Positions 1 through 13,059 of a stretch of DNA of 64,000 bases are shown here, piece by piece. Numbering within the stretch: position 1 is the stretch's first letter; every line of letters begins with the position of its first letter. The DNA lies in NCBI GenBank assembly GCA_043815505.1, contig JBDRIV010000002.1, forward strand, positions 11,484 to 75,483. The letters are read 5' to 3'. This stretch comes from a bacterium. Its GTDB lineage: Bacteria; Patescibacteriota; JABMPQ01; JBDRIV01. The notes under the pieces are model-generated. The model was given only the letters and a program-made list of their open reading frames with translations. It searched no databases and was not told where the DNA came from. The position numbers and the translations under genes are program-made.

Positions 1-830
1 TGGATTTGGAAACGGATAATTATTTCTAATTATCTCTTTGTGTCGCCACTCCCGTGACGCTTTTAACTTAAGCGAATCGGGATCCCAACTATTGTTGGGA
101 AAAGTTCGGACTATATCTTCCCTAGCTCAGTTTTAAAACTGAGGTCGAGTTCGGCATATAGTCTCTGAGGGTTTTTATAAAACAATCTTATTTCTGCGCC
201 GCTTTCCTTTTTGATTCATTTGATAAGCAAGTTTTAAAATTTGTTTAATGCCCTGGTTGTTTAAATGCTTTTTCTTATGAATAAGCTCAACAATTTGAGC
301 AAAGATCTTAAAATTTTGCCGTTTCTCTGTCAGAAGTTTATACCTACTGAAAAAAGGAATTATTTTATTGCGCAAATCCTCATGATTACGTACAACATAT
401 ACAAATGTTTTGTCCCGCTTGTTTAAACGATGATTGCACTTTATGTAGCCACAATCAAGTTTTTTTGTAAGCGCTTCAAGCACGTTTTTGCTATTTTGAT
501 GTTGACTGATATGGAATTCCGGAATTATCTTAATCTTTTGTTTCATATATGAATCTCGATAGATTGCAATATGAAAGCTTCCTTCCCCATCAGTTAACCC
601 AGCAATATAGTGAGGATTAATTTTCATAATTGATTGTTTATAAATCTTCCCTGCTGATTGTCTGCACTCAACACATTGTCACCTATTATTATAATAGGTA
701 GTGTGAGATTCTTCAACCCTCTATTCTCTATTAGGGTACAGAGTTTCCAGCATTTAGCCGAATTTATTGACAGCACGGTCGATAAATCTATTATGATTTC
801 TCTTTATTAAACGAAAAGATATTGAATTTA
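1..830 (-). mobile_element. 23S intron 1 (group-I-like), partial; follows exon sequence GAGACAGU (domain V, near E. coli ~2593); 3' splice site lies beyond the window start
   Basis: The exon match ends at plus 831-838 (actgtctc). No downstream exon sequence (UCGGUCCCUAUC) is found before position 1. Contains the LAGLIDADG ORF 175..627. Confidence 0.6.
175..627 (-). CDS. LAGLIDADG homing endonuclease, single-motif I-CreI-like type, intron-encoded
   Basis: N-terminal motif IAGLTDGEGSF in a 150-aa protein; located inside a 23S rRNA insertion. Confidence 0.8.
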   Translation of the reverse strand: MKINPHYIAGLTDGEGSFHIAIYRDSYMKQKIKIIPEFHISQHQNSKNVLEALTKKLDCGYIKCNHRLNKRDKTFVYVVRNHEDLRNKIIPFFSRYKLLTEKRQNFKIFAQIVELIHKKKHLNNQGIKQILKLAYQMNQKGKRRRNKIVL

Positions 831-1554
831 CTGTCTCGCGACGTTCTGAACCCAGCTCGCGTACCGCTTTAATTGGCGAACAGCCAAACCCTTGGGAGCT
901 TCTTCACCCCCAGGATGCGACGAGCCGACATCGAGGTGCCAAACAGCGCCGTCTATGTGAACTATTGGGCGCTATAAGCCTGTTATCCCCGGAGTAACTT
1001 TTATCCGATGGTCTTCCGCGATCCTACGATCAAAACAATTTCTATTATTCGCCTATGTCCCTATAAAAATAGAAACATAAACGAAATAGAAAGAGTTCTT
1101 TACGGTCGGTTCTCTAAATTCTGCTTTCGCAACTGCTCGACTTGTAGGTCTTGCAGTAAAGCAAGCTTGTGCTTTTACACTATCGGTCCGATTTCCATCC
1201 GGACCTAGCTTACCTTGAAACGCCTCCGTTACTTTTTAGGAGGCAACCACCCCAGTTAAACTACCCACCAGACACTGTTTTCATTTCCTGATTCAAGGAA
1301 ACGAGTTAGCTATAAAACATTATTAAGCTGGTATCTCACTGATGACTCCTTTTGAGCTAGCGCTCAAAAATCAAAGTCTCCCAGCTATGCTGAATAAACA
1401 AAGCTTTACAGCAATGTCAAGCTGTAGTAAAGCTTCACGGGGTCTTTTCGTCTTGCTATAGGTGAACGGTATCTTTACCGCTATTACAATTTCACCGAAT
1501 CCTTCGTTGGAGACAGTCTTCAAGTCGTTATGCCATTCGTGCGGGTCGGAACTT

Positions 1555-2299
1555 CATGTTACCGATCGTTTTCACGATGGATCAGACTATATCTTCACCT
1601 TATTTAGAATACTTAGGAGTTTTGCAATTGGATGTTTTCTTTTTCCGCTTTCATTCATTTGGTAGGCCAAAGTTATTATTTGGCGCAAATGTTTAGTGTT
1701 GCGATGCTTGTTTTGTTTTACTAAGTCGCAGATTTTATAAAAGATTATAAAATCTTGTTTCTTAGAAGTTTGTAAACCAAACTTTTTGAAGTGCGGTATG
1801 ATTTTGTTGTTTAAATCAACAATTGATCTTACCTCATATTTGTAGCTCTGATCTTTTTTAGAAAATCTGATACTACCACAACCGAAGTATTTCTTTATTT
1901 TCTGCAAAATGTCTAAACTGCGACGATTTTGAGAAATTGAAAAACTTGGTCGAACTTCAATTTTGGTTTTCAATTTAGCACGCAAGCTAAATGATACGGT
2001 GAAACATCCTTCGCCATCTACAAATCCTGTTATGTATGATGCAAAATCCATATATTCCTTCGTTTTAATAAGGGCTGACGTATTTTCCATCTTATAAGGA
2101 CGGAACTTGTCTTTCGACTCAGTCGTTACGGGTTCCCAATTTATGGGATTCCCACGGTATTATCATATCGTATTCCAATTTTTTTGAAAAATGAAATGCG
2201 TTTTAGACTTCACCGTTATTAGTCAGTTTGCTTATATCGCATTACTGCGATATTCGGGCAAGTTTGCCTCGCTTAAACGAGGTCCAACCATTAAGTATT
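1555..2299 (-). mobile_element. 23S intron 2 (group-I-like) at the L1931-type site: GGGU | AAGUUCCGACC
   Basis: Exon sequence CGAAATTCCTTGTCGGGT maps to plus 2300-2317 and AAGTTCCGACCCGCACGAATGG to plus <=1554. The upstream exon ends in U and the intron ends in ...AACATG. Confidence 0.65.
1587..2090 (-). CDS. LAGLIDADG homing endonuclease, intron-encoded
   Basis: Motif ITGFVDGEGCFTVSF in a 167-aa protein, inside 23S intron 2. Confidence 0.8.
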   Translation of the reverse strand: MENTSALIKTKEYMDFASYITGFVDGEGCFTVSFSLRAKLKTKIEVRPSFSISQNRRSLDILQKIKKYFGCGSIRFSKKDQSYKYEVRSIVDLNNKIIPHFKKFGLQTSKKQDFIIFYKICDLVKQNKHRNTKHLRQIITLAYQMNESGKRKHPIAKLLSILNKVKI

Positions 2300-2319
2300 A
2301 CCCGACAAGGAATTTCGCT

Positions 2320-11371: not shown

Positions 11372-12284
11372 AGTGTACAAGACCCGAGAACGTATTCACC
11401 GCGCTATAGCTGACGCGCGGTTACTAGCGATTCCAACTTCATGAGGGCGAATTGCAGCCCTCAATCCGAACTGAGACTGGGTTTGATGAGATTAGCTTCA
11501 TCTTGCGATTTCGCAACTCATTGTACCAGCCATTGTAGCACGTGTGTAGCCCGAGGCGTCAAAGGGTCATGCTGACTTGACGTCATCCCCACCTTCCTCC
11601 GACTGTACGCCGGCAGTCTCTTGTGAAAAATACAACACAAGATAAGGGTTGCGCTCGTTTCCGGACTTAACCGAACATCTCACGACACGAGCTGACGACA
11701 GCCATGCAACACCTGATCCATAAGTTCCTTGCGGCACTTCTTGGTTTCCCAAAAATTCCTATGAAGTCAAGCCTCGGTAAGGTTCTTCGTTTATTGTCGA
11801 ATTAAACCACATGCTCCACCGCTTGTGCGGGTCCCCGTCAATTCCTTTGAGTTTTAGTCTTGCGACCGTACTCCCCAGGCGGAATACTTAACGCGTTAGC
11901 TTCGGCACTAAAAGGGTCGAATCTCCTAGTGCCTAGTATTCATCGTTTACAGCGTGGACTACTGGGGTATCTAATCCCATTCGCTCCCCACGCTTTCGTC
12001 CTTGAGTGTCGGAATACAGCTAGCAGACTGCCTTCGCTATTGGTGTTCTTCCCGATATTAACGCATTTCACTACTACACCGGGAATTCCATCTGCCTCTC
12101 TGTTTCCCTAGTCTGGCAGTTTTCGAAACGAGCTTTAGGTTAGGCCTAAAGATTTAATTCCAAACTTACCAAACGACCTGCGGACGCTTTACGCCCAATG
12201 ATTCCGGATAACGCTTGCCACCCTCGTATTACCGCGGCTGCTGGCACGAGGTTAGCCGTGGCTTATTCCAATGGTACCGTCAAC

Positions 12285-12346
12285 CCAGCTTCAGTTTGGA
12301 ATCAAATCAAAAAAGAATTCAGTTTTGATTACAAACTGAGGCTGGG
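12285..12346. repeat. Family-A-like palindrome inserted in the 16S V3 region
   Basis: cccagcttcagtttgg...ttacaaactgaggctggg, between the 16S blocks ...ACGGTACCATTGG and the 515 region. Confidence 0.65.
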
Positions 12347-13059
12347 CTTCTTCCCAAAGAAAAGCAATTTACACCCCGAAGGGCTTCTTCTTGCACGCGG
12401 CGTCGCTCCGTCACGCTTTCGCGCATTGCGGAAGATTCTCGACTGCAGCCTCCCGTAGGAGTTCGGGCAGTGTCTCAGTCCCGATGTGACTGGTCGTCCT
12501 CTCGAACCAGCTACCCATCATCGTCTTGGTAGGCCATTACCCTACCAACTAACTAATGGGATGTAGGCCCCTCTCAAAGCGATCGAAATCTTTGGTCCGT
12601 AGACCACATGAGGTATTAGACCACCTTTCGGTGGATTATTCCTCACTTTGAGTTAGGTTCCAACATGTTACTCACCCGTCTGCCACTCTTCACCGAAGTG
12701 AAGCGTACGACTTGCATGCCTAAAACACGCCGCCAGCGTTCATCCTGAGCCAGGATCAAACTCTTAAAAATATTTAGTCTAGATGACTAAATCAATTGTT
12801 GGGTATATAATCTTGTACGATTATATGAAGTGGACAAAATGCCACTCATTTTAGTGGATCTGTCCTATCACTATTTAATTGTCAAAAGGTCAAAAAAATA
12901 CGTTTGTTTACGTACTAGCGATTTTAGTGTATATCCAAATATTTGTCAAGAAATAAAGATACCCACACCTGTGTATAGATAATTTGCCTTATTTTAGATA
13001 AAAAACCAAGTACGCGTACACTTGGCAAAATATTTTAATTTTCGAAGAATTTATTAAAA

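What the first reader, a model, noticed from the sequence alone, without database searches (positions are those of the whole stretch)
1..12772. rRNA region carrying at least eight homing-endonuclease-type genes of three families (LAGLIDADG x4, GIY-YIG, HNH x2, plus a nearby HTH-LAGLIDADG)
23S rRNA carries three group-I-like introns at the classical hot spots (after GAGACAGU in domain V, and at L1923 and L1931), each encoding a single-motif LAGLIDADG ORF. 16S carries a fourth in the universally conserved UGUACAC/ACCGCCCGUC decoding region. A GIY-YIG ORF sits in a 23S 5'-domain helix, and two small HNH-like ORFs lie in the spacer. Introns 2 and 3 end in the same ...AACATG, and introns 1 and 3 share a ~70-nt 3' block, which suggests intron duplication or transposition within one gene. 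This degree of invasion of a single rRNA locus is unusual and is typical of Patescibacteria-like lineages.
Basis: partly seen in the sequence, partly recalled or inferred. Interest (0 to 1): 0.7.

Follow-up and report, generated by a model that had tools for sequence, protein, structure and literature searches.

The report
Intron-riddled rRNA operon of a Patescibacterium
This is the rRNA operon of an uncultured Patescibacteria (CPR) bacterium, holding four intron-borne LAGLIDADG endonuclease genes and one small GIY-YIG nuclease gene inside a hairpin cassette; this pattern is already documented for the group, and the claimed HNH and extra LAGLIDADG genes are not there.

Summary
Partly confirmed, and mostly already known. 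The rRNA genes lie on the minus strand: 16S at 12771..10315, tRNA-Ile, tRNA-Ala, and 23S at 5598..<1.

Four ORFs are single-motif LAGLIDADG_1 genes. One sits in a group II (IIC-like) intron at 16S 1397/1398. The L2604 intron runs off the window start.

An 87-aa GIY-YIG ORF lies in a 23S 5'-domain helix tip. It is not in an intron and is not I-TevI-like. It is a 310-nt cassette bounded by 17-nt inverted repeats.

The two "HNH" ORFs fail. One is an orphan and one is a conserved zinc-ribbon protein. No fifth LAGLIDADG was found.

All four intron sites and the GIY-YIG class are reported for CPR rRNA genes (Tsurumaki 2024).

The new lead is the GIY-YIG cassette. Homologues with matching repeats sit in at least five other 16S/23S helix tips and in RNase P RNA. 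ORF-less hairpins with the same termini occur twice more in this 23S and in intergenic DNA. The layout resembles the Ssn nuclease and its hairpin repeats (Chenal 2025).

The parts
10315..12771 (-). 16S rRNA gene. Exon 1 is 12771..11373 (E. coli 1-1397) and exon 2 is 10445..10315 (E. coli 1398-1542).
   Evidence: Rfam SSU_rRNA_bacteria scores 1347 bits. blastn against E. coli rrsB and the junction sequences define the exons.
10446..11372 (-). Group II (IIC-like) intron of 927 nt at 16S 1397/1398. The 5' end reads UUGCG and the 3' end reads GAU. The D2-D3 region is 11055..10957. The D5-like hairpin is about 10504..10469. The D6 stem is 10467..10448, with a bulged A at 10453, the 8th nt from the 3' end.
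   Evidence: Rfam RF01998 group-II-D1D4-1 scores 50.9 bits against a gathering score of 35. The site matches CPR '16IS9/position 1400' and the rns-1396 IIC-LHE family.
10487..11113 (-). Single-motif LAGLIDADG_1 ORF inside the group II intron. The domain starts at residue 65, and the in-frame ATGs are at 11035 and 11029. The stop codon lies in the D5 loop.
   Evidence: Pfam PF00961 E 3.9e-26. PDB matches are I-OnuI, I-PanMI and I-SmaMI half-domains, E down to 1e-42. The motif reads GFVDGEGCF.
9693..9767 (-). tRNA-Ile (GAU).
   Evidence: ARAGORN and Rfam.
8929..9004 (-). tRNA-Ala (UGC).
   Evidence: ARAGORN and Rfam.
1..5598 (-). 23S rRNA gene, cut by the window start. Exons are 5598..3034 (E. 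coli 1-1931), 2319..2300 (1932-1951) and 1554..830 (1952-2604). The 3' exon is not in the window.
   Evidence: Rfam LSU_rRNA_bacteria scores 1871 bits. blastn against E. coli rrlB and the junction sequences define the exons.
5159..5468 (-). GIY-YIG hairpin cassette replacing the tip of a 23S 5'-domain helix (E. coli ~131-148; helix 9 by my recollection). The inverted repeats are CCCAGCCCCACTTTTAG and CTAAAAGTGGAGCTGGG. The ORF is 5435..5172 (87 aa).
   Evidence: Pfam GIY-YIG E 7.9e-17. The Rfam alignment shows a 298-nt insertion in a hairpin loop. Homologous cassettes occur elsewhere.
4516..4618 (-). ORF-less palindromic hairpin of about 100 nt at the tip of 23S helix 25 (between GUGGGAG and UGACCGCG). 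Its termini are CCCCGCYCCWGTTTT.
   Evidence: It occupies the same position as the GIY-YIG cassette in L054.
4325..4425 (-). Second ORF-less palindromic hairpin of the same family in 23S, at E. coli ~640.
   Evidence: Its first 48 nt are 85% identical to the 4516-4618 copy.
2320..3033 (-). Group I intron at 23S L1931 (714 nt). P1 is CUAUGGU/GCCAUAG with a U.G pair, and the intron ends ...AACAUG. It carries LAGLIDADG ORF 2948..2397 (183 aa), which overlaps P7-P8.
   Evidence: Junctions are. RF00028 scores 34.2 bits, below the gathering score. Pfam E 1.5e-23. PDB I-LtrI-like match E 2e-43.
1555..2299 (-). Group I intron at 23S L1951 (745 nt). P1 is UCGGGU/GCCCGA, and the intron ends ...AACAUG. 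It carries LAGLIDADG ORF 2090..1587 (167 aa).
   Evidence: RF00028 scores 29.6 and 20.7 bits for the two halves. Pfam E 4.6e-28.
1..829 (-). Group I intron after 23S U2604, at least 829 nt, with its 3' end outside the window. P1 is GACAGU/GCUGUC. It carries LAGLIDADG ORF 627..175 (150 aa).
   Evidence: RF00028 scores 23.0 and 18.8 bits. Pfam E 2.3e-21.
6673..6882 (-). It is conserved but is not HNH.
   Evidence: It has 15 homologues of about 70 aa. The alignment shows the His is not conserved. Neither it nor 13 homologues hit any HNH Pfam family.
6899..7204 (-). It has no family match.
   Evidence: No Pfam or NCBIfam hit. The only database match is itself, MFH1508566.1.
33713..33813 (.). Intergenic copy of the ~100-nt palindromic hairpin family. 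Others are at 45044-45140, 50644-50744 and a half copy near 23380. Short versions are at 39942-39974, 10146-10207, 2406-2437 (intron P8) and 10965-10996 (group II D3 tip).
   Evidence: The terminus pattern gives 20 matches against 0.82 expected.

Best explanation
The first 12.8 kb holds the rRNA genes of an uncultured Patescibacteria (CPR) bacterium: 16S, tRNA-Ile, tRNA-Ala, a 3.3-kb gap, then 23S. Two kinds of selfish insertion have colonised them.

(1) Four self-splicing-type introns sit in universally conserved rRNA sequence. One is a group IIC-like intron at 16S 1397/1398. Three are group I introns at 23S L1931, L1951 and L2604. Each carries a single-motif LAGLIDADG_1 gene. The encoded homodimeric endonuclease would cut intron-less alleles at that site, and the intron would be copied in by double-strand-break repair (homing). 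The ribozyme then splices out of the rRNA precursor, so the ribosome stays functional.

(2) Hairpin elements sit at variable helix tips of 23S. One is a 310-nt cassette with an 87-aa, domain-only GIY-YIG nuclease gene between 17-nt inverted repeats. Two are ORF-less ~100-nt palindromes with similar termini. These are not introns. They extend a native helix as a long perfect stem. Most likely they are tolerated as expansions or cut out by RNase III, like classical 23S intervening sequences. The nuclease-plus-hairpin-repeat layout works like the Ssn nuclease and its hairpin repeats.

Shown here: gene identities, exact insertion sites, P1, terminal G and D5/D6 features, inverted repeats, homologous cassettes at other sites, and dispersed hairpin copies.

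Inferred: splicing, homing, RNase III processing, and nuclease specificity.
For: - Map and sites: rRNA/tRNA map and exon junctions in E. coli numbering.
- LAGLIDADG genes: four LAGLIDADG_1 hits well above the Pfam cut-off with intact GxxDGEG motifs, homologous to solved I-OnuI/I-LtrI-type meganuclease half-domains.
- Group I evidence: sub-threshold RF00028 hits aligning the conserved P7/J8-7 core in all three 23S inserts; P1 helices with a U.G pair at each 5' splice site; a terminal G in the two complete introns.
- Group II evidence: RF01998 above its gathering score; a D5-like hairpin with a C-G.U-C triad and a 2-nt bulge; D6 with a bulged A 8 nt from the 3' end; 3' terminal AU.
- Literature: LAGLIDADG_1 at 16S-1400 (group II-like) and at 23S 1931, 1952 and 2604 in CPR, and GIY-YIG ORFs in non-intron insertions (PMC11270868). 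The rns-1396 IIC-LHE family (PMC13190283).
- Cassette: the inverted repeats. The closest homologues (64% and 58% identity) sit at a different 23S site with the same repeats, CCCAGCACCACTTT. Cassettes also occur in 16S (three sites), 23S helix 25 and RNase P RNA.
- Statistics: repeats scoring 13 or more flank 37 of 75 homologues against 0 of 260 shifted controls. Repeat type tracks protein subclade.
- ORF-less hairpins: the terminus pattern matches 20 times in the window against 0.82 expected. L054 repeats the pattern of one cassette plus one ORF-less hairpin with matching arms in a single 23S.
- Ssn parallel: PMC11893778. The alignment columns Y5, Y16 and E63 are conserved; SsnA's catalytic residues are Y6, Y17 and E64.
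Against: - RF00028 scores (18.8-34.2 bits) are below the gathering score of 50. The group I assignment therefore rests on motifs, P1 and the known sites.
- RF00029 (group II D5-D6) gave no hit at E up to 10. The intron starts UUGCG rather than GUGYG, and the D5-like hairpin has an extra bulged A.
- The 3' splice site of the L2604 intron is outside the window.
- No expression, splicing or rRNA-fragmentation data exist for this organism.
- Membership of the GIY-YIG protein in the Ssn family (CDD cd10448) could not be tested. In a neighbour-joining tree it falls in a clade separate from a homologue flanked by a canonical NTS-like repeat. PDB similarity is equally good to UPF0213.
- A test for strand-biased G.U pairs, meant to separate RNA-level from DNA-level selection on the hairpins, was inconclusive.
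- No close relative was available to show presence/absence polymorphism.
Confidence: 0.8

Rival explanations
1. Eight homing-endonuclease genes of three families (LAGLIDADG x5, GIY-YIG, HNH x2), with all inserts being group-I-like introns at L1923, L1931, domain V and the 16S decoding site.
For: Four LAGLIDADG ORFs and one GIY-YIG ORF are real. The spacer ORFs do contain CxxC...DH/DN...CxxC strings that look superficially like an HNH finger.
Against: - No HNH family hit in Pfam or NCBIfam for either spacer ORF or for ten other spacer ORFs.
- The 101-aa ORF has no homologue at all.
- The 69-aa ORF belongs to a family in which the putative catalytic His is replaced by Tyr in several members.
- No fifth LAGLIDADG was found.
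- The sites are L1931 and L1951.
- The 16S intron is group II.
- The GIY-YIG element is not an intron.
Confidence: 0.03
2. The GIY-YIG cassette is a classical double-strand homing element. It would be a free-standing GIY-YIG homing endonuclease living in an rRNA intervening sequence, cutting empty rDNA helices and spreading by homing. The ORF-less hairpins would be unrelated.
For: - GIY-YIG is a recognised homing-endonuclease family, and a weak NCBIfam hit to 'group I intron endonuclease' exists (E 8e-4).
- Cassettes recur at the same 23S site (E. coli 1704-1770) in five contigs.
- All are co-oriented with the host RNA gene.
Against: - The protein is 87 aa, with no DNA-binding domain. I-TevI matches only residues 4-40 (E 1e-3), whereas UPF0213 and SLX1 match along the whole domain.
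- Cassettes occupy at least six different rRNA helices, RNase P RNA and non-RNA sites. These sites have little sequence in common, unlike site-specific homing.
- ORF-less hairpins share the cassette's termini in two independent genomes.
Confidence: 0.15
3. The hairpins are host features rather than mobile elements. They would be lineage-specific rRNA expansion segments, RNase III processing sites or terminator-like palindromes. The GIY-YIG gene would merely have been captured in one of them.
For: - The outermost CCC..GGG pairs of the repeats coincide with the base pairs of the native helix at empty sites.
- Intergenic copies lie between genes, where terminators or REP-like elements sit.
- The same short motif caps P8 of two introns and D3 of the group II intron, which could reflect a shared RNA-binding partner.
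Against: - The same cassette (ORF plus repeats) occurs at different helices in different genomes, and outside rRNA.
- Repeats flank about half of 75 homologues against none of 260 controls, and they co-vary with the protein tree.
- Homologous P8 hairpins in other genomes lack the motif.
- The long stems lack a following U-tract, so they are not canonical terminators.
Confidence: 0.15
4. The locus is a dead or mis-assembled rRNA operon: a pseudogene or a chimeric MAG contig.
For: It comes from a metagenome-assembled genome, and the 23S is cut at the window start.
Against: - The exons are collinear, complete up to the window edge and highly conserved. They are 90% identical to E. coli around the peptidyl-transferase centre.
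- Every insert lies at a published CPR insertion site.
- All five nuclease ORFs are intact.
- No second rRNA operon is in the window, and CPR genomes usually have one.
Confidence: 0.02

Closest known systems
Insertion sequences in CPR/Patescibacteria rRNA genes (Tsurumaki et al. 2024, PMC11270868; also, from my own knowledge and not opened here, Brown et al. 2015)
   Same: - LAGLIDADG_1 ORFs at 16S ~1400 in a group II-like intron, and at 23S 1931, 1952 and 2604 in group I introns.
- Single-domain LAGLIDADG proteins of about 150-210 aa.
- GIY-YIG ORFs in insertions that match neither intron class.
- Short unclassified insertions at known IVS sites.
This window matches all of these.
   Different: The survey does not describe inverted repeats around the GIY-YIG ORFs. 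It does not link the short insertions to a dispersed repeat family; the words hairpin, palindrome and repeat do not occur in it.
rns-1396 group IIC intron with LAGLIDADG ORF (reviewed in Liu et al. 2026, PMC13190283, which cites Salman et al. 2012 on Thiomargarita; the 2012 paper was not opened)
   Same: - Same 16S site.
- Single-motif LAGLIDADG ORF placed before D5.
- No reverse transcriptase.
- A non-canonical 5' end; the family is reported to have a 5' linker.
   Different: - The host is Patescibacteria, whereas Liu et al. report the family only in Thiotrichaceae.
- RNA-level homology to the Thiomargarita intron was not tested here.
- The ORF here begins within D3, and its stop codon lies in the D5 loop.
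Bacterial and organellar 23S group I introns with LAGLIDADG genes at L1931 and L1951 (Thermotoga, Simkania, Coxiella, Chlamydomonas; recalled from memory)
   Same: Same insertion sites in domain IV, a U.G pair at the 5' splice site, a terminal G, and an intron-encoded LAGLIDADG.
   Different: Here both sites, plus L2604, are occupied in one gene. The two introns are separated by a 20-nt exon.
Ssn nucleases and NTS/SRM hairpin repeats (Chenal et al. 2025, PMC11893778)
   Same: - A single-domain GIY-YIG protein of about 90 aa.
- The gene is bracketed by hairpin-forming repeats.
- The same repeats are dispersed in the genome.
- Y/Y/E catalytic positions are conserved.
- The repeats have the same polarity: 5' C-rich arm, 3' G-rich arm.
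   Different: - Here the two flanks are the two halves of one hairpin, with the gene in its loop, rather than a complete hairpin on each side.
- The elements sit inside rRNA, RNase P RNA and intron helices, which the Ssn paper does not mention.
- The C-terminal NPEW..DL tail seen in NTS-flanked homologues (L081, L084) is absent.
- cd10448 membership is untested.
23S rRNA intervening sequences cut by RNase III (helix 9, 25 and 45 IVS; for example the Coxiella IVS with an S23p ORF, PMC4990558, seen only in search listing; the rest from memory)
   Same: Inserts at helix tips, including helix 25 and, by my recollection, helix 9. Long stems formed by terminal inverted repeats, sometimes carrying a small ORF. 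They are not religated introns.
   Different: The ORF is a GIY-YIG nuclease, not the 23S_rRNA_IVP/S23p four-helix protein. Fragmentation of the rRNA is untested.
REP/BIME elements with RAYT transposases, and MITEs
   Same: A dispersed palindromic repeat family, plus a nuclease gene flanked by copies of the repeat.
   Different: The nuclease family differs (GIY-YIG, not a Y1 transposase). Insertion is into structural RNA genes. No target-site duplication was seen.

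Membership tests
Group I intron (Rfam RF00028) | Covariance-model score at or above the gathering score (50 bits) | tested here: not met
   Best hits are 34.2 bits (L1931), 29.6 and 20.7 bits (L1951), and 23.0 and 18.8 bits (L2604). The ORFs split the core, which lowers the scores.
Group I intron (Rfam RF00028) | P1 helix pairing the 5' exon end with an internal guide, with a U.G pair at the splice site | tested here: met
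   The pairings are CUAUGGU/GCCAUAG, UCGGGU/GCCCGA and GACAGU/GCUGUC. The exon ends in U in all three.
Group I intron (Rfam RF00028) | Terminal G at the 3' end, and the conserved P7/J8-7 core (AGACUA...GAUAUAGUC) | tested here: met
   Both complete introns end ...AACAUG. The core motifs are aligned in all three. The 3' end of the L2604 intron lies outside the window.
Group I intron (Rfam RF00028) | Self-splicing with exon ligation | not testable with these tools
   Needs RNA data or in vitro splicing.
Group II intron, IIC-LHE (rns-1396 type) | Rfam group II model at or above the gathering score | tested here: met
   RF01998 group-II-D1D4-1 scores 50.9 bits against 35.
Group II intron, IIC-LHE (rns-1396 type) | Domain V hairpin with catalytic triad and 2-nt bulge, and an Rfam RF00029 (D5-D6) match | tested here: inconclusive
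   The fold gives a 36-nt hairpin with a C-G.U-C triad, a UU bulge and a 5-bp upper stem, but also an extra bulged A. RF00029 gave no hit at E up to 10.
Group II intron, IIC-LHE (rns-1396 type) | Domain VI with a bulged branch-point A 7-8 nt from the 3' splice site, and a 3' end of AY | tested here: met
   In GAGACCAAUUUGGAUCUCGAU the bulged A is the 8th nt from the end, and the intron ends AU.
Group II intron, IIC-LHE (rns-1396 type) | 5' end GUGYG | tested here: not met
   The intron begins UUGCG, and a GUGUG lies 24 nt inside. The family is reported to carry a 5' linker before the conserved motif.
Group II intron, IIC-LHE (rns-1396 type) | Insertion at 16S 1396/1397 with a single-motif LAGLIDADG ORF and no reverse transcriptase | tested here: met
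.
LAGLIDADG homing endonuclease (Pfam PF00961) | Profile score above the gathering score, and an intact motif with a catalytic acidic residue | tested here: met
   Scores are 77-98 bits against 23.1 for all four. The motifs are GLTDGEGSF, GFVDGEGCF, GFTDGEGTF and GFVDGEGCF.
LAGLIDADG homing endonuclease (Pfam PF00961) | Cleavage of the intron-less target site | not testable with these tools
   A CPR homologue, I-ShaI, was shown to do this (abstract).
GIY-YIG homing endonuclease (I-TevI type) | Catalytic domain joined to a DNA-binding domain, and association with an intron | tested here: not met
   The protein is 87 aa, a catalytic domain only. I-TevI aligns only to residues 4-40. The host element is not an intron.
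Ssn site-specific ssDNA nuclease with SRM repeats | Single-domain GIY-YIG protein of about 90 aa with conserved Y, Y and E catalytic residues | tested here: met
   The protein is 87 aa. Y5 and E63 are invariant and Y16 nearly invariant in the alignment. SsnA's catalytic residues are Y6, Y17 and E64.
Ssn site-specific ssDNA nuclease with SRM repeats | Gene flanked on both sides by a hairpin repeat that is also dispersed in the genome | tested here: met
   The flanks are the two arms of one hairpin. The terminus pattern gives 20 matches against 0.82 expected, about ten hairpins in all including the cassette, in 64 kb. This is a variant layout.
Ssn site-specific ssDNA nuclease with SRM repeats | Assignment to CDD cd10448 | not testable with these tools
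   No CDD search is available. Homologues with canonical NTS-like flanks (L081, L084) are 41-46% identical over residues 1-68. The neighbour-joining tree places L081 outside the window's clade; L084 was not in the tree.
Ssn site-specific ssDNA nuclease with SRM repeats | Cleavage of ssDNA only, next to the hairpin | not testable with these tools
   Needs biochemistry.
23S rRNA intervening sequence (RNase III type) | Insert at a helix tip, closed by a long stem of terminal inverted repeats | tested here: met
   The Rfam alignment places the inserts in hairpin loops. The stems are 17 bp for the cassette and about 35-37 bp for the ORF-less hairpins.
23S rRNA intervening sequence (RNase III type) | Excision without religation, giving fragmented 23S rRNA | not testable with these tools
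   Needs an rRNA gel or RNA-seq.
HNH endonuclease | Match to an HNH profile, and a conserved catalytic His in a beta-beta-alpha metal finger | tested here: not met
   No HNH hit for 6899-7204 or 6673-6882 or for 13 homologues of the latter. His is replaced by Tyr in several homologues.

The most novel reading that the evidence does not exclude
The GIY-YIG ORFs and many of the 'uncharacterised short insertions' of CPR rRNA genes may be one class of element. This would be an Ssn-like, hairpin-specific GIY-YIG nuclease carried in the loop of its own target hairpin, together with ORF-less hairpin derivatives. The class would preferentially colonise the tips of helices in stable RNA genes (16S, 23S, RNase P RNA, even intron P8 and D3 stems), always co-oriented with the host RNA. 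It would presumably ride on the host RNA's transcription and be removed or tolerated as a stem extension. That would give bacterial rRNA intervening sequences a concrete mobile-element origin, and it would extend the Ssn system to a new niche and phylum.
Probability: 0.4. Interest if true: 0.6.

Novelty: new member of a known kind. Interest (0 to 1): 0.38.

Why it matters
As stated, the finding is a textbook example of what is already published for CPR/Patescibacteria rRNA genes. Its main value is as a well-resolved, correctly mapped case:
- It has five nuclease genes and four introns.
- It includes a group II-LAGLIDADG intron in a phylum that the latest family survey of such introns did not list.

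The more useful result is the hairpin lead. It gives a testable origin for two categories the CPR survey left unexplained: GIY-YIG insertions that are 'not introns', and short insertions without ORFs.

It also connects these to the recently discovered Ssn ssDNA nucleases and to classical RNase III-processed intervening sequences. If that holds, these small nucleases are candidate new ssDNA-specific enzymes. Each would come with its recognition hairpin written next to the gene.

Practically, such inserts lengthen rRNA genes (here at least 2.9 kb of extra sequence) and break universal primer sites. This matters for amplicon surveys and MAG annotation. NCBI did not annotate the GIY-YIG ORF.

Tried and rejected
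- Source record: I looked for it to recover the missing 23S 3' exon and 5S. The look-up of encoding contigs had no record for the GIY-YIG, the 150-aa LAGLIDADG or P0010. Only protein accessions and the contig length were recovered.
- RF00029 (group II D5-D6): no hit even at E 10 on a 1-kb slice, so D5/D6 rest on folding.
- HNH: Pfam and NCBIfam on both candidate ORFs and ten other spacer ORFs; a word-index search of the 101-aa ORF; a full HMMER search of the 69-aa ORF; and Pfam on its family. None supports HNH.
- Fifth LAGLIDADG: six-frame phmmer with all four LAGLIDADG queries found nothing. LAGLIDADG_2 and _3 types would be missed by this, so the Pfam hit for the ORF next to 16S (DUF4145) is the only other check.
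- Recent duplication of introns: rejected, because the proteins are 33-43% identical.
- Ssn reference sequence: the paper's supplements are not held, so direct comparison with SsnA was not possible.
- Strand-biased G.U pairs in the hairpins (RNA-level against DNA-level selection): no consistent bias.
- Hairpins as intrinsic terminators: rejected for the long ones, because the GC clamp is at the base and no U-tract follows.
- The 20-nt palindrome CCTGCCTGCCGGCAGGCAGG as part of the GIY-YIG system: only 8 of 127 metagenome copies lie near a GIY-YIG ORF. It is kept as a separate, unexplained observation.
- A 2026 preprint that mentions SsnA could not be opened.

Full report
**What is there.** Rfam places a bacterial 16S gene and a bacterial 23S gene on the minus strand, with tRNA-Ile (9693-9767) and tRNA-Ala (8929-9004) between them. 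I aligned the region to E. coli rrnB (locus L001) to put every exon block in E. coli numbering.
- 16S exon 1 is 12771..11373 and ends at C1397. Exon 2 starts at 10445 (A1398) and runs to about 10315.
- The 23S exons are 5598..3034 (positions 1-1931), 2319..2300 (1932-1951) and 1554..830 (1952-2604).
- Nothing downstream of U2604 is in the window. The last intron and the 23S 3' end run off the window start.
- Rfam's claim to cover model positions 1-2925 and 1-1533 is an alignment artefact at those ends.

**Host.** The SMC protein encoded at 19963-22584 has its best named hits in Patescibacteria (Komeilibacteria, Kerfeldbacteria, Moranbacteria), at no more than 56% identity. Window proteins are in NCBI as a MAG labelled 'bacterium' on a 567,323-bp contig. 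The 'Patescibacteria-like' guess is correct.

**The nuclease genes.**
- Pfam confirms four LAGLIDADG_1 ORFs (175-627, 1587-2090, 2397-2948, 10487-11113; E 2e-21 to 5e-28). It also confirms one GIY-YIG ORF (5172-5435, E 8e-17).
- Each LAGLIDADG ORF has one intact GxxDGEG motif. Each matches half-domains of solved I-OnuI, I-LtrI and I-SmaMI meganucleases. They are 33-43% identical to one another, so they are old paralogues.
- Six-frame phmmer of all 64 kb finds no further LAGLIDADG_1-type or GIY-YIG ORF.
- The ORF beside the 16S promoter is DUF4145.

**The 'HNH' ORFs.** ORF 6899-7204 has no Pfam or NCBIfam match, and no homologue other than itself among 5.8 billion proteins. ORF 6673-6882 does belong to a conserved family of about 70-aa proteins (15 hits, best E 1e-7). 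That family is a zinc ribbon (NPWG...C..C...CP.C). The supposed catalytic His is Tyr in several members, and none of 14 members hits an HNH profile. Ten more spacer ORFs gave nothing. The HNH claim is refuted.

**The 23S introns.** The junction sequences show that the two central inserts are at L1931 and L1951, not L1923/L1931. Exon 1 ends ...CCUAUGGU. The 20-nt exon reads AGCGAAAUUCCUUGUCGGGU. Exon 3 begins AAGUUCCGACC. The third insert follows GAGACAGU (U2604).
- All three give sub-threshold RF00028 hits of 18.8-34.2 bits, against a gathering score of 50. These hits align the conserved AGACUA...GAUAUAGUC core.
- All three can form a P1 helix with a U.G pair at the 5' splice site: CUAUGGU/GCCAUAG, UCGGGU/GCCCGA and GACAGU/GCUGUC.
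It is 73 nt at 81% identity between the L1931 and L2604 introns. It is the P7-P8-P7' catalytic core, and the ORFs of these two introns are only 33% identical. It therefore points to common ancestry, not recent duplication.

**The 16S intron is group II.** Rfam's group-II-D1D4-1 model hits 10957-11055 at 50.9 bits, above its gathering score of 35.
- The 3' end folds into a D5-like hairpin with a C-G.U-C triad and a 2-nt bulge.
- D6 has a bulged A that is the 8th nt from the 3' end, and the intron ends AU.
- RF00029 did not hit, and the 5' end is UUGCG rather than GUGYG.
- The site, the single-motif LAGLIDADG ORF running into D5 and the lack of a reverse transcriptase all match two published groups. 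One is the group II-like '16IS9, position 1400' insertions of CPR. The other is the rns-1396 IIC-LHE family, which is reported to have a 5' linker.

**Comparison with the literature.** Tsurumaki et al. 2024 (PMC11270868) surveyed 380 16S and 348 23S genes of CPR.
- They found insertions in 48% of 16S genes and 82% of 23S genes.
- They found LAGLIDADG_1 concentrated at 16S 1400 and at 23S 1917, 1931, 1952, 2593, 2604 and 2657.
- Group II-like introns occurred only at 16S 1400.
- GIY-YIG ORFs occurred only in insertions that match neither intron class.
- They also found many short unclassified insertions at known IVS sites.

Every element of the window fits this picture. As posed, the finding is a new member of a known kind.

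**The GIY-YIG element.** The Rfam alignment shows a 298-nt insertion in the loop of a 5'-domain hairpin, at E. coli ~131-148. The insert is bounded by the inverted repeats CCCAGCCCCACTTTTAG and CTAAAAGTGGAGCTGGG. The protein is only 87 aa. Its closest solved relatives are UPF0213 (1zg2, E 1.7e-12) and SLX1, while I-TevI aligns only to residues 4-40. It is a bare catalytic domain, not a modular homing endonuclease.

**Homologous cassettes elsewhere.**
- The closest homologues (64% and 58% identity) are also in 23S genes, but at E. coli ~1704-1770. They have the same repeats, CCCAGCACCACTTT.../...AAAGTGGTGCTGGG.
- Among 80 homologous loci from GTDB genomes, cassettes lie in 16S at three sites, in 23S helix 25 and at the 1704-1770 site, and in RNase P RNA. 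All are co-oriented with the host RNA.
- Twenty-seven further homologues lie within 400 nt of a tRNA or tmRNA gene, all on the same strand.
- Inverted repeats scoring 13 or more hug the ORF in 37 of 75 loci, against 0 of 260 shifted controls.
- In a neighbour-joining tree the window's protein falls in a clade that holds all the RNA-borne copies. In that clade repeat type follows protein subclade.

**ORF-less hairpins.** A pattern built from the repeat terminus matches 20 times in the window against 0.82 expected.
- These arms form about ten hairpins, counting the GIY-YIG cassette itself.
- Two are ~100-nt palindromes inside 23S, at the tip of helix 25 (4516-4618) and at E. coli ~640 (4325-4425).
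- There are three full intergenic copies and one half copy.
- Short versions sit in the 16S-tRNA spacer, in P8 of the L1931 intron and at the D3 tip of the group II intron.
- The helix-25 copy occupies exactly the position where locus L054 has a GIY-YIG cassette. L054 in turn has an ORF-less hairpin, with its own cassette's arm sequence, at the 1704-1770 site.
- Homologous P8 stems in other genomes lack the motif.

**Interpretation of the hairpin elements.** The layout matches the Ssn system (Chenal et al. 2025, PMC11893778): a ~90-aa single-domain GIY-YIG gene bracketed by a hairpin repeat that is also dispersed in the genome. There, a 94-aa GIY-YIG protein cuts ssDNA next to NTS/SRM hairpins that flank its gene.
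- The Ssn paper notes the resemblance to insertion sequences and to REP/RAYT. It does not mention rRNA, tRNA or CPR.
- Two of my homologous loci (L081, L084) carry canonical NTS-like flanks.
- Membership in cd10448 could not be tested, and the window's clade is distinct. I therefore claim 'works like', not 'is'.
- The position at helix tips, including two classical IVS sites, and the long perfect stems make RNase III excision or tolerance as expansion segments the likeliest fate in the RNA. This is inference.

**Other features of the region.** The stretch between tRNA-Ala and 23S is 3.3 kb. It holds small ORFs, promoter-like sites before 16S and 23S, and a bidirectional terminator-like hairpin, so the two rRNA genes may be separate transcription units. 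The spacer also holds tRNA fragments, further repeat families and a 20-nt palindrome that is widespread in metagenomes. These are listed under things noticed.

**Verdict.** As a phenomenon it is already described for CPR bacteria. The hairpin/GIY-YIG link is a reasonably well-supported new lead that needs RNA data and biochemistry.

Noticed in passing
window 9981-10000; L059 2459-2478; L090-L209: A perfect 20-nt palindrome, CCTGCCTGCCGGCAGGCAGG, sits inside a split tRNA-Ile-like pseudogene. The identical palindrome sits in a duplicated tRNA-Leu 5' half next to a GIY-YIG gene in a Margulisiibacteriota MAG. At least 120 metagenome contigs carry it in very varied contexts, including D- and T-loops of tRNA-like sequence. 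Only 8 of 127 copies are near a GIY-YIG ORF. Its origin is unknown.
   Followed up: partly
window 9810-10030: A tRNA-Ile-like gene is broken by about 140 nt between its anticodon-stem region and T-arm. The 5' part is 10030-10001 and the T-arm part is 9836-9813. ARAGORN does not call it.
   Followed up: partly
window 9507-9551 and 9883-9927: A repeated structured-looking element of about 100 nt (GAGCACG..TTTAAAT.GAGAGGAGAAACAA..hairpin..GAAG) occurs twice. One copy is the leader of the 85-aa membrane ORF 9207-9464, and one is inside the split tRNA-like gene. It has no Rfam match.
   Followed up: no
window 8411-8435, 9086-9099, 9026-9076: A 25-nt duplicate of the tRNA-Ala 3' end (96% identity) lies 519 nt downstream of the gene, beyond a 110-aa acidic ORF (8444-8776). 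A tRNA-Ala 5' fragment, followed by a CCCCCCAGTTTAA...GGGGG hairpin, lies just upstream. This suggests past insertions into tRNA-Ala.
   Followed up: no
window 5008-5079, 9178-9207, 10054-10097: A second small repeat family is built from GCTTATAGC and GGCGAATGGC units. One copy is a 71-nt hairpin insertion in 23S at E. coli ~230, and two are in the spacer.
   Followed up: partly
window 1022-1097: A 76-nt AU-rich hairpin expands a 23S domain V helix where the Rfam model has 7 nt.
   Followed up: no
window 2406-2437, 131-160, 10965-10996: The genome's own CAGTTT..AAACTG hairpin motif caps P8 of two group I introns and D3 of the group II intron, and is even translated within two LAGLIDADG ORFs (..KQTGAGK..). 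Homologous P8 stems in other genomes differ.
   Followed up: partly
window 5876-5904, 12921-12949, 8112-8137: Strong promoter-like sites lie upstream of both 16S (11 of 12 matches) and 23S (10 of 12). A bidirectional terminator-like hairpin lies in the 3.3-kb gap. The rRNA genes may not be one operon.
   Followed up: no
window 6673-6882: A conserved, uncharacterised family of about 70-aa zinc-ribbon proteins (MG.LSR...NPWG...GKRC..C.RVILN.HL..KDG..YCPDC) has no Pfam domain.
   Followed up: partly
L010-L089 (GIY-YIG homologues): A second clade of small GIY-YIG proteins (C-terminus REKYLKTG.GR.YLK) lies next to tRNA or tmRNA genes. In all 27 such cases the two genes are on the same strand, and inverted repeats are usually absent.
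   Followed up: partly
L006-L009: Some GIY-YIG homologues (P0007) are immediately followed by a gene of the 23S_rRNA_IVP family, the protein typical of classical 23S intervening sequences.
   Followed up: no
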